From a virus (Duplodnaviria; Heunggongvirae; Uroviricota; Caudoviricetes), in the IMG/VR virus record IMGVR_UViG_2534682157_000019: 64,000 nucleotides of DNA; one strand, given 5' to 3'. The position numbers were made by a program. Shown here piece after piece: positions 57,001 through 63,000 of the stretch (positions are counted from its first letter, which is position 1; each line of letters opens with the position of its first letter).

Positions 57001-60000
57001 TAGATTTCTTCGACCGTGCGCTTCCGGTTGTGAATAACAACATTGCTGTGTGTAGTCATTGGCGGATATCAGTTTAATTGCTGGCTGATATCCGCCCTTT
57101 TTTAAAGTGAATTTTGTGATGCGGTGAATGCGGCTCAGCGCACGCGGAACAGTTAAACCGACAGGATGTCACGGAAAGTCATCGTCCCCTGACCCGGCGT
57201 TAATTGTTAACTGGTTAACGTCACCTGGAGGCACCAGGCACCGCATCAACAAAGTTCATTTGTGAAAATGGAGATAATTATGATTGCTCATCACTTCAGA
57301 ACTGATGAAATACCACGTCAGTGCGTGACACCTGGCGATTATGTTCTTCATGAAGGGCGGACATATATCGCTTCAGCAAACAATATTGAAAAGAGAAAAC
57401 TCTATATTCGTAACTTCACGACAAAAACATGCATTACCGATTGCATGATTAAAGTCTTCCTCGGACGTGATGGTTTACCTGTAAAAGCGGAGTCATGGTG
57501 ATAAATGTAAAAATAAAATGTGCCTACCATCTCTGCAATAAGGAAACCGAACAAACCAAATCCGTTAAAAGTCATCTTCATTTTATGAAAGGCACAATCC
57601 CCGTAACCGAAGAGCGGCAATATTGCAGTAAGCAATGCGCCGAAAATGACCAGATGGCACATGAACTCTAACCCCTCAACTTGATATTCAGACAATTCAG
57701 TTTCATGCCAGATATAACAGCACCATAGGCCTTAAAAAAAGGACATATAAAGTGAAAGAACTTAATCCTGACCAAATCTTTTCTGAAACCGAAAAGACAG
57801 CAGTAAATGAACTTAATGAAATTGCAAACCGCATCAGTAAAATATGCAAAGAATACAAAATCGACTTTGTATTTTCTTTTTCAGTGCTTACAGAAGTTGG
57901 AAATAACGAATATAAAGACAGTCGTTTGGTTTCATGTGGGTTAAATGGCAAAACACCAAGCCCATATATTCATGCCGCATGTGAAGTCGTCAGAAGCAAC
58001 ATTGAAGCACAACAAATCCATGAACTGGCGCTGGCTCTTGAGTTTGCAAGAGAAAATCCTGAGTGCGACTGCCCCGAATGCCAGCACGAAAAGGAAAAAC
58101 AACTAACAAAACAGCAAACCAGGCAACCTTCCACTGAAATAAAAATCCGGCAGCGCAGGCTACCGGATTTCTCCCTGCGTCACCGTATTCGGAGAAATCA
58201 GACAAAGGGCCGCTAATTCTAATCCAGCCAGAGGTTTAAATACAATGAGTGCTGATAAACAGACTTTTGCACTACACTGCGAAGCAAAAAACGATAAAGT
58301 CAGAAAACGCCTTGACATCAAAGGCGGTTTTTTCTGGACCGAGGCCAGAAAACTTTCTGTCGCAGTTTCCCGCTGCATTGCAGCCATGGACGATGCAGGC
58401 TACGACGAGGATGATTTCAAAAAACCCGTTCGCGTAAATTTCCCCGTCGTGAATGACCTTCCACCGGAAGGCGTGTTTGATACTGAATTCTGCAACCGCT
58501 ATGAAAAAGGCGGTAACGATGGCATCACCATGATGGCTATCCCCTTCGATGACAACATCAACGGTGAAGATGCCACAACTGCTGGCGATGACAACGATAA
58601 CCTGGACGGAACTATTCCGGATGATGTGGAGAAAAGCGAATCCCCGGACAGCGACGATGACTGTTCTGAGTGTGAAATTCCCGTCGCCACTCTGAGCCTT
58701 ACTCATCGCTTCCTTCACCTCTTCTTATTCAGCAAAGATGAAGATGGAAAATACCGGCATCATGCCACACCAGAACAACGCAATAACGTGATCCGTATGG
58801 AGATGGACACAGAGGACAGTTACCTTCAGAGCCTGCTTACTGCTGTGCGCGCCGCGCATCATGAACTGGATAAACTGACGAACCATCACCTTAGTCGCCT
58901 AGCTGAATCTGTAGGGAAAGCATTCCCCCACTCTGCAAATCATCGCATCAGCCCGGCTGAATTCGACAAGTTCATCTCCACCTGGATGAAAACAGACTAT
59001 GTGGATCAGGGATTGCTGGCAAAAGAATGGCAGAAAGGAAATTATGTTACAGGCATCACTCGTACGCCTTCCGGTGCTAACGCTGGCGGCGGAAATCTTA
59101 CCGATCGTGGCGAAGGCTTTACCCACAATCAGGCATCACTGGCGCGAGACATTGCCACTGGCGTTCTGGCCCGTTCAATAGATGTGGATATTTATAACCT
59201 GCACCCAGCACACGCAAAACACGTTGAAGAAATCGTGTCAGAGAATAAGCCGCCCTTTTCTGTTTTCCGTGACAAATTCATCGCCATGCCCGGTGGGCTG
59301 GATTATTCCCGCGCCATTGTGGTGGCTTCAGTGAAAGAAGCACCAATCGGCATTGAGGCTATCCCGGCGCGCGTGACTGAATATCTCAACAAAGTGTTGA
59401 CCGAAACCGATCACTCTAACCCGGATCCGGAAATCGTGGAAATCGCCTGCGGTCGCTCATCAGCCCCAATGCCGCAGCGCGGAACAGCAGAAGAGATACA
59501 TGACGATGAAGAAAAGCAGCAAACATCGGACGCAATGTCTAATGAACAGGCAGCGCCTGAATCAGTGGAAGAAATTCCAGTTAAACATAATGCGGACACG
59601 CAATCACTGGAAAATGTCTCATCTGTAGAAACGAAATACCAGGAACTGAGAGCAGAACTCCATGAAGCCAGGAAAAACATTTCGCCCAAAAATCCTGTCG
59701 ATGCAGACAAATTGCTGGCTGCCTCTCGTGGGGAGTTCGTTGAAGGCATCAGCGCCCCAACCGACCCGAAGTGGATTAAGGGGATCCAGGCTCGCGACAC
59801 TGAGGACCAGAATCAGTCCAAAGTGGAACAAATTGCCCCAGAAGCGGGACAAAACAGCCCGGATACGCAACAAAACGGGCCAGAAGAGCAACAGCCAGCC
59901 CCAGTAGCGCAACCGGAGCTGGAAAAAAACTGCCGCGTCTGTGGTCAGACTGGCGGGGGTAACTGCCCTGACTGTAGTGCGGTAATGGGCGATAGCACTT

Positions 60001-63000
60001 ACACAGAAACTTTTGGAGAAAATGACGCCGCTGATGGAGAAGACTCAGCACAAACTGAGGAGAAGATCATTCAGGAAAACTCTGTTGATGCCGCTCAGGA
60101 GGGCGAAACCGTTGTTCAGAACGAGCCAGGCAGTGATACGTCCGGCGATGACGCCAATTCTGAGCCAGTAACTCTCGACTGGAAAAGACAGCTCGTGATT
60201 GCCGCCGTCTATGGTTTGTGCGCCAACCCCGCATGTATAGCCACAGCGCCAGCAATCCCTGATATCGCCATCATGATTGCCAACAGGCTTGAAAATTTCG
60301 GAGGTGAGAAATCATGAATGCCTGGCTTATCCCCGATCGCATTGAAGAGCAGTCATGGGCACGACACTACCAGCAAATTGCCCGTGAAGAAACTGAAGCT
60401 GAGCTGGCAGACGACCTGGAAAAAGGTCTGCCCCAACACCTGTTTGAATCGCTATGCATCGATAATCTGCAACGTCACGGGGCCAGCAAAAAAGCTATTT
60501 CCCGTGCATTTGATGACGATGTCGATTTTCAGGAACGCATGGCAGAACACATCCGCTACATGGCTGAAACCATCGCCCGTCACCAAATTAATATTGATTC
60601 AGAGGTATAAAACGGATGAGTACAGCACTCGCAACGCTGGCAGGGAAGCTGGCTGAACGTGTCGGCATGGATTCTGTCGACCCACAGGAACTAATCACCA
60701 CTCTTCGCCAGACGGCATTTAAAGGTGATGCCAGCGATGCGCAATTTATCGCATTGTTGATCGTCGCCAACCAGTACGGCCTTAATCCCTGGACGAAAGA
60801 AATTTACGCCTTCCCTGACAAGCAGAACGGCATCGTTCCGGTGGTTGGCGTTGATGGCTGGTCCCGCATTATCAATGAAAACCAGCAGTTTGATGGCATG
60901 GACTTTGAGCAGGACAATGAGTCCTGTACATGCCGGATTTACCGCAAAGATCGCAATCACCCGATCTGCGTTACCGAGTGGATGGATGAATGTCGCCGCG
61001 CACCATTCAAAACCCGCGAAGGCAGAGAAATCACCGGACCGTGGCAGTCGCATCCCAAACGGATGTTACGGCACAAAGCCATGATTCAGTGTGCTCGCCT
61101 GGCCTTCGGATTTGCTGGCATCTATGACAAGGATGAAGCCGAGCGTATTGTCGAAAATACCGCATATACTACAGAACGTCAGCCGGAACGCGACATCACC
61201 CCGGTTAACGAAGAAACCATGTCGGAAATTAACGCCCTTCTTACTTCCATGGAAAAAACGTGGGATGACGACCTGTTGCCGCTCTGTTCCCAGATTTTTC
61301 GCCGCAACATTCGAGCGTCGTCAGAACTGTCCCAAGCCGAAGCAGAGAAGGCTCTTGGATTCCTTAAACAGAAAGCCACAGAGCATAAGGTGGCAGCATG
61401 ACACCAGAAATTATCCTACAACGTACCGGGATCGACGTGAGAGGTGTCGAGCAGGGAGATTATGCATGGCAAAAATTACGGCTCGGGGTCATCACAGCTT
61501 CAGAAGTTCACAACGTGATAGCAAAACCCCGCTCCGGAAAGAAATGGCCTGACATGAAAATGTCCTACTTCCACACTCTGCTGGCTGAGGTCTGCACGGG
61601 TGTGGCCCCGGAAGTTAACGCCAAAGCCCTGGCATGGGGAAAACAGTACGAGAACGACGCCAGAGCCCTGTTTGAGTTTACTTCCGGCGTGAATATTACT
61701 GAATCCCCGATCATCTATCGCGACGAAAGTATGCGTACCGCCTGCTCTCCGGATGGATTATGCAGTGACGGCAACGGCCTTGAGCTGAAATGTCCGTTTA
61801 CCTCCCGGGATTTCATGAAATTCCGGCTCGGTGGTTTCGAGGCCATAAAATCAGCTTACATGGCCCAGGTGCAATTCAGCATGTGGGTGACTCGAAAAGA
61901 TGCCTGGTACTTCGCCAACTATGACCCGCGCATGAAGCGTGAAGGCCTGCATTATGTCGTGGTCGAGCGGGATGAAAAATACATGGCTGGTTTTGACGAG
62001 ATGGTGCCGGAATTCATCGAAAAAATGGACGAAGCACTGGCTGAAATTAGTTTTGTATTTGGGGAGCAATGGCGATAGCCAGTAACAATGAGGTTCTCAT
62101 ATATGAATATTTCATTTGAAAGTCATGGTTCGGCAGCAAGTGTTGTTATCACCAGTTCGCTATTCGAATGCCGAAAGCACCAGCATATCGTTGATGCACT
62201 GAAGTTCAAAGTACCGGAAATGACCGTCACAACCCGGGGATGTTTCTGGATACGGACGACGTTAGCCACAACATACCTCACGGCACGCCGTGTTTATGAT
62301 ATGGCACACCAGGAATATAACCAGTGTTCGTCCTGATCCAGCGCGGGCAGTCTTTCGTCGATGCCAACAACTATCCGGTGGAAATCTGCAAGGTAACTCT
62401 TACTCAGGTGATCTACCGAAGACTCGACGGCAGAACCCGAGCCACTTCAATTGGTGCATTTAATGAAGAATTTGAGCGAGTCGACCACAACGAACTACAC
62501 ATGATTAAAGCGGAAATTGAGAAGGAAATGCATATTGCCAGCCTTCGAAAAATGCGACGTACATCAATCAACTGACAACCGCCTTCGGGCGGTTTTTAAT
62601 GGCAAAAATATGGATTCACACAGTATCACCCTCAAAGAGGCCTGTCAGTTTCTCAAGATATCAAGGCCAACAGCTGTTAACTGGATACGAACGGGCCGAC
62701 TACAGGCAACACGAAAAAATTCTTCCGGTAAAAGATCACCTTATCTCACAACCCGGCAAGCCTGCATTGCAGCACTTCATTCACCGCTGCATACTGTCCA
62801 GGTGAGCGCGGGTGATGGCATAACAGAGGAAAGAAAATGTCACTCTTCCGCAGAGGTGAAATATGGTACGCCTCGTACTCGCTCCCGGGCGGGAAGCGAA
62901 TTAAGGAGTCTCTTGGCACAAAGGACAAGCGGCAAGCTCAGGAGTTGCACGACAAGCGAAAAGCAGAACTCTGGCGAGTAGACAAACTGGGGGATATGCC

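What the first reader, a model, noticed from the sequence alone, without database searches (positions are those of the whole stretch)
58245..60317. Uncharacterised 690-aa acidic protein where lambda has kil, immediately upstream of gam
Large ORF translationally coupled to gam, with long acidic tracts and a C-terminal zinc-ribbon-like CxxC...CxxC. I could not assign a family.
Basis: inference. Interest (0 to 1): 0.45.

Follow-up and report, generated by a model that had tools for sequence, protein, structure and literature searches.

The report
RecE-like protein lacking its nuclease
The 690-aa acidic protein upstream of gam is a relative of the N-terminal, functionally unexplained two-thirds of the prophage recombination enzyme RecE in which the nuclease domain is replaced by a short conserved helical tail, so it belongs to a known family, is mislabelled "exodeoxyribonuclease VIII" in databases, and still has no known function.

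Summary
The ORF is real: 58245..60317, 690 aa, pI 4.58, net charge -59, with its stop overlapping the gam ATG.

A family can be assigned. Residues 51-601 are 59% identical to residues 43-579 of Rac RecE, and the protein matches PHROG 607 (1e-254) and Pfam PF06630.

It is not an exonuclease VIII:
- Similarity ends where RecE's PD-(D/E)XK nuclease begins.
- No nuclease domain is detectable.
- The protein fails NCBI's RecE equivalog cutoff (731 vs 1269 bits).

In place of the nuclease it has an acidic linker and a ~45-aa helical hairpin (motif QLxIAAxxGLCANPA). This hairpin ends 22 of 84 divergent family representatives, including the lineage of Qin prophage YdfE.

The shared head-plus-core platform is fused elsewhere to a PD-(D/E)XK exonuclease, a DnaQ-type exonuclease or RecT. 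Its fold matches no solved or viral structure.

The gene is under purifying selection (dN/dS ~0.3; tail 0.10). A separate Kil homologue lies upstream, so this is not a kil substitute.

A 2025 paper already notes nuclease-less "RecE-2" proteins of unknown role.

Verdict: a known, mis-annotated family member of modest interest. The proposed mechanism, a non-catalytic platform or adaptor for DNA-end transactions, is inferred only.

The parts
58245..60317 (+). Whole ORF: 690-aa nuclease-less RecE-N/YdfE-family protein
   Evidence: ORF list. PHROG 607 at 1e-254, covering profile positions 1-617 of 883. 59% identity to Rac RecE residues 43-579. dN/dS 0.27-0.30.
58245..58544 (+). Head domain D1 (res 1-100): small alpha/beta fold that overlaps Pfam PF06630
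58545..58661 (+). Acidic, likely disordered linker (res 101-139, net charge -15), including C140-x2-C143 at its end
   Evidence: pLDDT below 50 at residues 102-138. Charge.
58662..59495 (+). Core domain D2 (res 140-417): mostly helical and the most conserved part. Motifs: RTxSGAxAGGGNxTDR, D(V/F)DIY, PGxLDYSRA, ExxHxxP.
   Evidence: pLDDT 83-98. Conserved positions. dN/dS 0.18-0.19. hhalign between the YdfE-type and RecE-type profiles: probability 100%, E 2.5e-58. No convincing PDB or BFVD fold match.
59613..59777 (+). Helix pair (res 457-511), shared with RecE
   Evidence: Helices 458-477 and 487-495 at pLDDT about 55-84. Aligned with RecE.
59931..59975 (+). Cys4 motif [15 protein letters not shown] (res 563-577): candidate zinc knuckle or ribbon
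   Evidence: Positions. Conserved in close homologues and in Rac RecE. Modelled at low confidence. No significant Pfam hit.
60025..60047 (+). End of similarity to recE (mosaic boundary). Downstream of here RecE has its linker and PD-(D/E)XK nuclease; this protein does not.
   Evidence: DNA alignment with Rac-SA53 recE. The BLASTP alignment ends at residue 601.
59976..60173 (+). Second acidic linker (res 578-643), likely disordered
   Evidence: pLDDT below 50. Charge. Highest dN of any segment.
60174..60302 (+). Conserved C-terminal helical hairpin (res 644-686), motif [18 protein letters not shown]...[12 protein letters not shown]
   Evidence: 22 of 84 long family representatives end with it. 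Invariant L650, A653, A654, G657, N661, P662. Helices 646-660 and 665/670-685 at pLDDT 58-72. dN/dS 0.10.
60300..60317 (+). GGAGG Shine-Dalgarno for gam, inside the ORF's last codons, plus the ATGA stop/start overlap
   Evidence: Sequence shown. The same overlap is annotated in related phages.
60314..62078 (+). Lambda-type Red module downstream: gam (60314-60610), bet (60616-61401), exo (61398-62078)
   Evidence: Pfam Gam 4.8e-65, RecT family 3.3e-33, YqaJ 6.8e-29.
57262..58216 (+). Rac-like upstream neighbours: KilR-type kil (57262-57501), YdaE-like 58-aa zinc protein (57495-57671), and a 154-aa ORF in the racC position (57752-58216)
   Evidence: PHROG 294, 1520 and 2016. Rac gene order kilR-ydaE-racC-recE. 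Seed matches.

Best explanation
What it is (shown; identity confidence about 0.95). The gene encodes a nuclease-less member of the RecE N-terminal-region family, the branch a 2025 paper called 'RecE-2', which also contains the lineage of Qin prophage YdfE. It keeps five RecE features: the alpha/beta head (res 1-100), the acidic linker, the ~280-residue helical core (140-417), the helix pair, and the Cys4 motif. RecE's PD-(D/E)XK exonuclease is replaced by an acidic linker plus a ~45-residue helical hairpin. That hairpin is the most conserved element of the nuclease-less subfamily. The database name 'exodeoxyribonuclease VIII' is therefore an over-transfer from the non-catalytic part of RecE.

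How it most likely works (inferred; mechanism confidence about 0.3). The head-plus-core platform is the constant, autonomous unit of the family. In different relatives it is joined to a 5'-3' exonuclease, a 3'-5' exonuclease or an annealase, so its job is probably to bring a DNA-end-processing activity to its substrate or partner. This is the part of RecE that in cis boosts linear-linear recombination. In this protein the covalent nuclease is replaced by the hairpin. I propose the hairpin acts as an oligomerisation or docking element for a conserved partner: host-encoded in prophages with no recombinase, and possibly lambda Exo/Bet supplied in trans in this phage. On this reading the protein is a non-catalytic accessory or adaptor of the early-left DNA-transaction module. 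It is co-translated with Gam but does not depend on it.
For: Identity:
- PHROG 607 at 1e-254, matching only profile positions 1-617 of 883; PF06630.
- 59% identity to Rac RecE residues 43-579, and nothing after residue 601.
- Rac RecE carries PF12684 at 860-1024; this protein carries no nuclease domain.
- No PDB sequence hit. The RecE nuclease domain has a crystal structure (PMC11611040), so an intact nuclease domain would have been expected to produce one.
- NF007259 scores 730.6 bits against a cutoff of 1269.

Real, selected gene:
- The 113 close homologues aligned are all 660-705 aa.
- 83 of 5426 complete E. coli genomes hold it.
- dN/dS 0.27-0.30 overall, 0.18-0.19 for the core, 0.10 for the tail.

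Tail is a conserved module:
- 22 of 84 long representatives, at 20-30% identity, end with it.
- Six of the seven invariant columns in the tail-type alignment lie in the tail.

Platform is shared and modular:
- hhalign YdfE-type vs nuclease-bearing RecE-type: probability 100%, E 2.5e-58, over head plus core.
- C-terminal modules: PD-(D/E)XK 18, DnaQ-type 14, RecT 2-3, tail 22.

Independence from Gam and Red:
- Ten tail-type loci in other Enterobacterales have no Bet, RecT, Exo or Gam homologue; the gene sits just before xis/int.

Literature:
- The RecE N-terminal region has unknown function but boosts linear-linear recombination (PMC11611040; PMC11610958).
- 'RecE-2' proteins lack a nuclease domain and have unknown roles (PMC12315714).
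Against: - The mechanism has no direct support. No partner was identified, and no fold relative was found in the PDB or in viral models.
- The hairpin is modelled only at pLDDT 58-72.
- The core has conserved polar motifs (TDR, DxDIY, DYSR, ExxH) that would suit an enzyme as well as a binding platform.
- From my own recollection of Fu et al. 2012 (the paper was not available here), the RecE N-terminal region did not work when supplied in trans. If that is right, it argues against a simple trans-acting adaptor for Red.
- Tail-type genes occur in prophages with no recombinase, so the function may have nothing to do with recombination.
Confidence: 0.6

Rival explanations
1. It is an active exodeoxyribonuclease VIII (RecE), as GenBank, RefSeq and PHROG annotations say, giving the phage a second 5'-3' exonuclease beside lambda Exo.
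For: Annotated 'exodeoxyribonuclease VIII' or 'RecE family exodeoxyribonuclease' in phages and genomes. Strong similarity to RecE over about 550 residues.
Against: - The similarity covers only RecE's non-catalytic N-terminal region.
- No PF12684/PD-(D/E)XK or other nuclease domain is found.
- There is no PDB hit, although the RecE nuclease structure exists.
- The protein fails the NCBIfam equivalog cutoff, 730.6 vs 1269 bits.
Confidence: 0.02
2. It is a host-takeover or anti-defence decoy. The long acidic disordered tracts mimic nucleic acid and sequester or inhibit a host DNA-binding enzyme (a nuclease, restriction or defence protein). The folded platform gives specificity.
For: - Strong negative charge is conserved in all 64 diverse family members (pI 4.4-5.5, net -15 to -75), although the linker sequences are not conserved.
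- It is encoded in the early-left operon beside Gam, Kil and other host-directed genes.
- It occurs without any recombinase in other prophages.
Against: - The acidic tracts are predicted disordered rather than forming a folded DNA mimic like Ocr or Gam.
- The most conserved parts are the near-neutral core and the hydrophobic hairpin, not the acidic tracts.
- It co-occurs with Gam, so it is probably not a RecBCD inhibitor.
- RecE-type phages without anti-RecBCD are Chi-rich, which implies RecBCD stays active in them (PMC12315714).
Confidence: 0.15
3. The helical core is an enzyme of a new fold, and the protein acts catalytically on DNA ends, nucleotides or a host protein. The nuclease or hairpin modules are accessories.
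For: Conserved glycine-rich and polar motifs in the core: RTxSGAxAGGGNxTDR, DFDIY, PGxLDYSRA, ExxHxxP, each residue kept in 70-96% of 64 diverse sequences. No convincing fold match in PDB or BFVD, so an unrecognised activity is possible.
Against: Several family members lack the GGGN-TDR motif. No residue in the core is invariant across the family. No similarity to any catalytic family was found in Pfam, NCBIfam or PADLOC.
Confidence: 0.12
4. It is a Kil-like toxic or cell-division-inhibiting protein that occupies lambda's kil slot.
For: It is the gene immediately upstream of gam, where lambda has kil.
Against: A genuine Kil/KilR homologue is present at 57262..57501. There is no sequence or size resemblance to Kil (47 aa in lambda from the annotated coordinates). 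The gene order matches Rac's kilR-ydaE-racC-recE.
Confidence: 0.03
5. It is a decaying remnant of recE, truncated when a lambda gam-bet-exo module recombined into a Rac-like phage.
For: Clear mosaic boundaries: recE similarity ends at about 60025-60047 and lambda similarity starts at the gam ATG. dS is very uneven along the gene.
Against: - The full-length reading frame is kept in 113 homologues and 83 complete genomes.
- dN/dS is about 0.3 overall and 0.10 in the tail.
- The tail is a conserved module in relatives only 20-30% identical from other genera.
Confidence: 0.03

Closest known systems
RecE (exodeoxyribonuclease VIII) of the Rac prophage
   Same: - Head domain (PF06630), helical core, helix pair and Cys4 motif.
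- 59% identity over RecE residues 43-579.
- Same place in the operon, after kilR and ydaE.
- Strongly acidic.
   Different: - Lacks the C-terminal PD-(D/E)XK nuclease domain that defines the enzyme.
- Ends instead in a conserved 45-aa helical hairpin.
- Followed by lambda gam-bet-exo rather than recT.
'RecE-2' proteins of lambdoid Rec modules (PMC12315714) and the YdfE lineage (Qin prophage ydfE; Pfam PF27430/PF27432)
   Same: - Nuclease-less relatives of RecE in the early-left operon, with unknown role.
- Share the head-plus-core platform (hhalign probability 100%).
- Share the C-terminal hairpin motif.
   Different: - The window protein is much closer to RecE in its first 600 residues (59% vs about 25-28% identity), and it keeps RecE's Cys4 motif and helix pair.
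- The YdfE-type loci examined have no recombinase or Gam.
- I could not confirm that the paper's 'RecE-2' set includes this exact protein, because its supplement is not held.
RecE-N::DnaQ-type 3'-5' exonuclease fusions in E. coli prophages (e.g. P0123)
   Same: Same N-terminal platform and same operon position after kilR-ydaE.
   Different: They carry a PF16473 3'-5' exonuclease at the C-terminus instead of the hairpin.
Lambda Kil / Rac KilR
   Same: Only the position: kil is the gene next to gam in lambda.
   Different: Unrelated in sequence and size. The window has its own kil homologue elsewhere.
P22 Abc1 and Arf (accessory recombination proteins of unknown mechanism)
   Same: Functional analogy only: non-nuclease, non-annealase proteins encoded in a lambdoid Rec module (PMC12315714).
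   Different: No sequence relationship was tested or claimed.

Membership tests
RecE / exodeoxyribonuclease VIII | C-terminal PD-(D/E)XK 5'-3' exonuclease domain (Pfam PF12684; the crystallised RecE nuclease domain) | tested here: not met
   No PF12684 or other nuclease hit, whereas Rac RecE has it at 860-1024. No similarity to RecE after residue 601. No PDB sequence hit. phmmer with the Rac nuclease domain hits other family members but not this architecture.
RecE / exodeoxyribonuclease VIII | Score at or above the curated cutoff of the NCBIfam equivalog model NF007259 | tested here: not met
   730.6 bits vs a cutoff of 1269, matching model positions 1-598 of 877. Rac-SA53 RecE scores 1354.6.
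RecE / exodeoxyribonuclease VIII | N-terminal Exonuc_VIII region (PF06630) | tested here: met
   PF06630 E 2.3e-12, 47.7 bits against a cutoff of 25.
RecE / exodeoxyribonuclease VIII | Paired with a downstream recT partner gene | tested here: not met
   The downstream genes are gam, bet and exo of the lambda type.
RecE / exodeoxyribonuclease VIII | Mg-dependent 5'-3' dsDNA exonuclease activity | not testable with these tools
   Needs a biochemical assay.
Nuclease-less RecE-N / YdfE-type ('RecE-2') proteins | Head-plus-core platform homologous to the RecE N-terminal region | tested here: met
   BLASTP to P0183, E 9e-38, over residues 239-684. hhalign of the YdfE-type vs RecE-type profiles: probability 100%, E 2.5e-58.
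Nuclease-less RecE-N / YdfE-type ('RecE-2') proteins | Absence of any nuclease domain | tested here: met
Nuclease-less RecE-N / YdfE-type ('RecE-2') proteins | Conserved C-terminal hairpin, motif QQLTIAALQGLCANPA...P.MA | tested here: met
   Window sequence [17 protein letters not shown]...IPDIAIMIA. Invariant L650, A653, A654, G657, N661, P662.
Nuclease-less RecE-N / YdfE-type ('RecE-2') proteins | Hits to Pfam PF27430 (YdfE_N) and PF27432 (YdfE_C) | tested here: inconclusive
   The precomputed Pfam listing for close relatives shows only PF06630. P0183 and P0221 carry both models. The local Pfam copy lacks these models.
Lambda Kil / KilR | Sequence membership of the Kil family (PHROG 294); a small protein | tested here: not met
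   PHROG 294 matches the separate ORF at 57262..57501, not this protein.
Zinc ribbon / zinc knuckle | Four Cys arranged CxxC...CxxC and folding into a metal site | tested here: inconclusive
   The motif is present and conserved among close relatives and in RecE. AF2 pLDDT is below 50 there. The only Pfam hint is Anti-TRAP at E 0.96. The columns are gaps in 59-81% of the rows of the diverse alignment.
Known anti-phage defence proteins (PADLOC) | Match to any PADLOC model | tested here: not met
   No hit.

The most novel reading that the evidence does not exclude
The head-plus-core platform shared by RecE, DnaQ-fused and YdfE-type proteins is an autonomous functional module of a fold not yet seen in solved structures. 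Its conserved C-terminal hairpin recruits a conserved host DNA-metabolism factor. Paired in trans with lambda Red, as in this phage, it would confer the linear-linear (end-joining-like) recombination proficiency that full-length RecE has and Red lacks. That would explain the decades-old puzzle of what RecE's N-terminal two-thirds is for.
Probability: 0.15. Interest if true: 0.6.

Novelty: already known. Interest (0 to 1): 0.3.

Why it matters
RecE's N-terminal two-thirds has had no assigned function since the enzyme was described. It is nevertheless the part that makes full-length RecE/RecT the tool of choice for direct cloning by linear-linear recombination.

Natural proteins made of that region alone, kept under selection and here placed directly in front of a lambda Red module, show that the region is an independent functional unit. 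They also offer a clean way to study it without the nuclease.

Practically, the finding flags a widespread mis-annotation: 'exodeoxyribonuclease VIII' is applied to proteins that have no nuclease domain. The same label appears in Stx-phage comparative genomics, though I did not check which proteins that paper's label covers.

None of this is a new kind of system. The gene is common in E. coli and Shigella prophages, and the nuclease-less class has already been noted in print.

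Tried and rejected
- PDB sequence search: nothing.
- PADLOC: nothing.
- I looked for the tail elsewhere in phages by tblastn. It appears only in the same six records.
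- I tested whether the small ORFs coupled downstream of YdfE-type genes are Gam-like. They are not; their sequences (67-77 aa, shared NGYWWL motif) show no similarity to Gam.
- I tested whether tail-type genes are consistently linked to Bet, RecT, Exo or Gam. They are not, so gam coupling says nothing about function.
- I had equated the tail with Pfam 'YdfE_C' and withdrew that. The K-12 ydfE remnant aligns only to the front of P0183, and the local Pfam copy lacks the model.
- Direct BLASTP of the window protein against the K-12 ydfE remnant found nothing. The link needs the intermediate P0183 or profiles.
- A second AlphaFold run on a tail-only alignment did not raise confidence in the hairpin materially.
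- Literature searches for YdfE function, and for this gene in Stx phages, gave no functional data.
- Fu et al. 2012 could not be read.

Full report
**1. The observation**

The ORF exists exactly as described: 58245..60317 on the + strand, ATG start, 690 codons.
- The protein is strongly acidic: pI 4.58, 124 D+E against 65 K+R, net charge about -59. Acidic tracts lie at about residues 91-150, 415-450 and 571-640.
- Its TGA overlaps the ATG of the next ORF (ATGA at 60314-60317), with a GGAGG 9 nt upstream.
- That next ORF is Gam (PF06064, E 4.8e-65). Bet (RecT family) and Exo (YqaJ) follow.
- The same 4-nt overlap is annotated in three related phages.
- A C-x2-C-x7-C-x2-C motif sits at residues 563-577.

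One point needs correcting. This phage has its own Kil/KilR homologue at 57262..57501 (PHROG 294, E 3.6e-37), so the ORF does not stand in for kil.

**2. Family**

- The protein matches PHROG 607 at E 1.3e-254 and Pfam PF06630 'Exonuc_VIII'.
- It is 99.8% identical at the DNA level to a gene of phage phiSTEC1589-Stx1c annotated 'exodeoxyribonuclease VIII', and 91-94% identical to genes of PhiR5_2, POCJ13 and 75/02 Stx.
- The protein collection holds many 680-700-aa relatives named 'RecE family exodeoxyribonuclease'.
- BLASTP against a Rac RecE (1048 aa) gives 59% identity over query residues 51-601 and RecE residues 43-579.
- The upstream neighbours follow the Rac order: kilR, a ydaE-like gene, an ORF in the racC position, then recE.

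**3. It is not an exonuclease VIII**

Every profile match stops short of the catalytic part.
- PHROG 607 is matched over positions 1-617 of 883.
- NCBIfam's RecE equivalog NF007259 is matched over positions 1-598 of 877. The score is 730.6 bits against a curated cutoff of 1269, whereas Rac RecE scores 1354.6.
- Rac RecE carries the PD-(D/E)XK domain PF12684 at residues 860-1024. The window protein has no such hit, nor any other nuclease domain.
- No PDB chain matches the protein. [quoted passage not shown]
- At the DNA level, similarity to recE ends at about 60025, just after the Cys4 codons. Similarity to lambda begins at the gam ATG.

The database name therefore comes from similarity to the non-catalytic part of RecE.

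**4. What replaces the nuclease**

Residues 602-690 match nothing in RecE. In the phage collection they are found only in the same six records.

The exhaustive representative search found only 204 clusters (E at or below 1e-3) among 1.84 billion proteins, so this is a small family.

| C-terminal end of the 84 representatives of 450 aa or more | Count |
|---|---|
| Match to this protein's last ~45 residues | 22 |
| RecE-type PD-(D/E)XK domain | 18 |
| DnaQ-type 3'-5' exonuclease (PF16473) | 14 |
| RecT domain | 2-3 |
| Nothing recognised | about 28 |

- The tail motif has the consensus L-T-Y-x-QQLTIAALQGLCANPA-x5-DDIP-x-MA. The window protein reads [33 protein letters not shown].
- In an alignment of 22 tail-type proteins that are only 22-30% identical to the query, six of the seven invariant columns lie in the tail: L650, A653, A654, G657, N661, P662.

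The tail is therefore a conserved module, not junction debris.

**5. Link to YdfE**

- Two tail-type representatives, P0183 and P0221, carry the recent Pfam families YdfE_N and YdfE_C.
- The K-12 ydfE pseudogene lies in Qin prophage between ydfD and intQ and is cut by IS2. It aligns to P0183 residues 6-217 (E 1e-12).
- P0183 aligns to the window protein over residues 239-684, tail included (E 9e-38).
- I compared a profile of YdfE-type proteins with a profile of nuclease-bearing RecE-type proteins, leaving the window protein out of both. hhalign gave probability 100%, E 2.5e-58, over 406 columns spanning head and core.

The window protein thus joins a RecE-like front (head, core, helix pair, Cys4) to the tail typical of the YdfE branch. 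I do not equate the tail with Pfam 'YdfE_C'. That model was probably built on the truncated K-12 fragment, and I could not see its coordinates.

**6. Structure**

Two AlphaFold2 runs (64-row and 22-row alignments) agree.

| Segment | Residues | Prediction |
|---|---|---|
| Head | 1-100 | alpha/beta, pLDDT about 77-95 |
| Acidic linker | 102-138 | low confidence, likely disordered |
| Core | 140-417 | mostly helical, pLDDT 83-98 |
| Linker | 418-456 | low confidence, likely disordered |
| Helix pair | 458-495 | pLDDT about 55-84 |
| Long linker, contains the Cys4 motif | about 512-643 | low confidence, likely disordered |
| C-terminal hairpin | 646-660 and 665/670-685 | pLDDT 58-72 |

- The core carries conserved polar motifs: RTxSGAxAGGGNxTDR, DFDIY, PGxLDYSRA and ExxHxxP. 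Some family members lack the first motif.
- The Cys4 motif is kept in close relatives and in RecE, but its columns are gaps in 59-81% of the rows of the diverse alignment.

**7. Is it a live gene?**

Yes.
- The 113 close homologues aligned are all 660-705 aa.
- 83 of 5426 complete E. coli genomes carry at least 80% of the gene, and 1237 share parts through other platform fusions.
- dN/dS against PhiR5_2 and POCJ13 is 0.27-0.30 overall, 0.18-0.19 in the core and 0.10 in the tail.
- dS varies from 0 to 0.76 between segments, which indicates recombination within the gene.
- Strong negative charge holds in all 64 diverse members (pI 4.4-5.5, net -15 to -75), even though the linker sequences are not conserved.

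**8. Context in relatives**

I examined ten tail-type loci from Buttiauxella, Citrobacter, Lelliottia, Cedecea and metagenomes.
- In each, the gene is the last large gene of the early-left operon, a few hundred bases before xis/int.
- None has a homologue of Bet, RecT, Exo, Gam or the RecE nuclease nearby.
- A DnaQ-fused relative sits after kilR-ydaE with no annealase.

The pairing with gam-bet-exo in this window is therefore a mosaic combination, and the coupling to gam says little about function. In two YdfE-type loci (L004 and L006) the stop likewise overlaps the start of whatever small gene follows.

**9. Literature**

- Reviews state that the RecE N-terminal region has unknown or unclear function. 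The nuclease domain alone can substitute genetically, and full-length RecE boosts linear-linear recombination (PMC11611040; PMC11610958).
[quoted passage not shown] The same paper reports DnaQ-like nucleases in Rec modules (PMC12315714).
- I found no functional work on YdfE or on this gene in Stx phages.

**10. Mechanism**

Shown: this is a nuclease-less platform protein of the RecE-N/YdfE family, with a conserved C-terminal hairpin, under selection.

Inferred: the same platform is joined in relatives to two unrelated exonucleases or an annealase, and in RecE it boosts recombination between linear molecules. Its role is therefore most likely to place a DNA-end-processing activity on its substrate or partner.

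In this protein the hairpin replaces the covalent enzyme. Its small-residue pattern (AAxxGxCANP) suits tight helix packing. Its extreme conservation across genera suits binding to a slowly evolving partner or self-association. I rate this adaptor or oligomerisation model at about 0.3.

Rivals:

| Rival | Confidence | Comment |
|---|---|---|
| Acidic decoy against a host DNA-binding enzyme | 0.15 | |
| Enzyme of a new fold | 0.12 | |
| Kil-like toxin | 0.03 | |
| Decaying recE remnant | 0.03 | Contradicted by the data above |
| True exonuclease VIII | 0.02 | Contradicted by the data above |

**11. Verdict**

The protein belongs to a known family, and the nuclease-less class has already been noted, so it is not novel as a kind.

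Three points have residual interest:
- the database name is wrong;
- the region's function is a long-standing unknown;
- this natural platform-only protein next to Red offers a direct test.

Interest 0.3.

Noticed in passing
window 54831..55184 (+): A 117-aa ORF directly after the N-like antiterminator gene (54441..54809) matches PHROG 5632, 'Nun-like transcription termination factor' (E 2e-69). This would be an HK022-Nun-type exclusion function in an Stx1c-type phage.
   Followed up: no
window 57752..58216 (+), indel near 58099: The 154-aa ORF just upstream of the finding is 26 aa longer than its family (PHROG 2016, 128 positions) and than the 128-aa CDS in the 99.8%-identical phage. The window lacks one A in a GGAAAAAA run, which shifts the frame. 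This is either a real homopolymer frameshift or a sequencing error.
   Followed up: partly
window 57061..57096 (+): A strong terminator-like hairpin (14-bp stem, 7 G-C pairs, T-run) lies inside the early-left operon upstream of kil. It is a plausible N-antiterminated tL-type terminator.
   Followed up: no
window 56610..56909 (-): An opposite-strand 99-aa ORF inside the leftward operon matches PHROG 2605 (unknown function, E 5e-45). It lies where GC rises from about 0.41 to 0.50, so it looks like a moron.
   Followed up: no
window 57495..57671 (+): A 58-aa YdaE-like Cys-rich protein hits the eukaryotic Rtr1/RPAP2 zinc-finger Pfam family just at threshold (33.4 bits against a cutoff of 33). It overlaps the end of kil, as in Rac.
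   Followed up: no
window 55534..56250 (+): A 238-aa protein (PHROG 2539, unknown function) whose residues ~100-190 give weak matches to PHROG families annotated endonuclease VII, HNH endonuclease and Lar-like restriction alleviation.
   Followed up: no
window 58245..60317 compared with L016 and L017: Synonymous divergence is very uneven along the gene (dS 0 in some segments, 0.6-0.76 in others, and different for each comparison phage). This indicates recombination breakpoints inside the ORF.
   Followed up: partly
P0124, P0191, P0215 (family representatives; not in the window): A few family members have the RecE-N platform fused directly to a RecT annealase domain. These are either genuine fusions or frameshift/assembly artefacts at the recE-recT overlap.
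   Followed up: no
L018 6079..6999 (E. coli K-12 Qin prophage): The K-12 ydfE pseudogene, cut by IS2, is the front part of a YdfE-type platform protein. K-12 therefore holds remnants of two members of this family: recE in Rac (from general knowledge; Rac was examined here only in strain SA53) and ydfE in Qin.
   Followed up: partly
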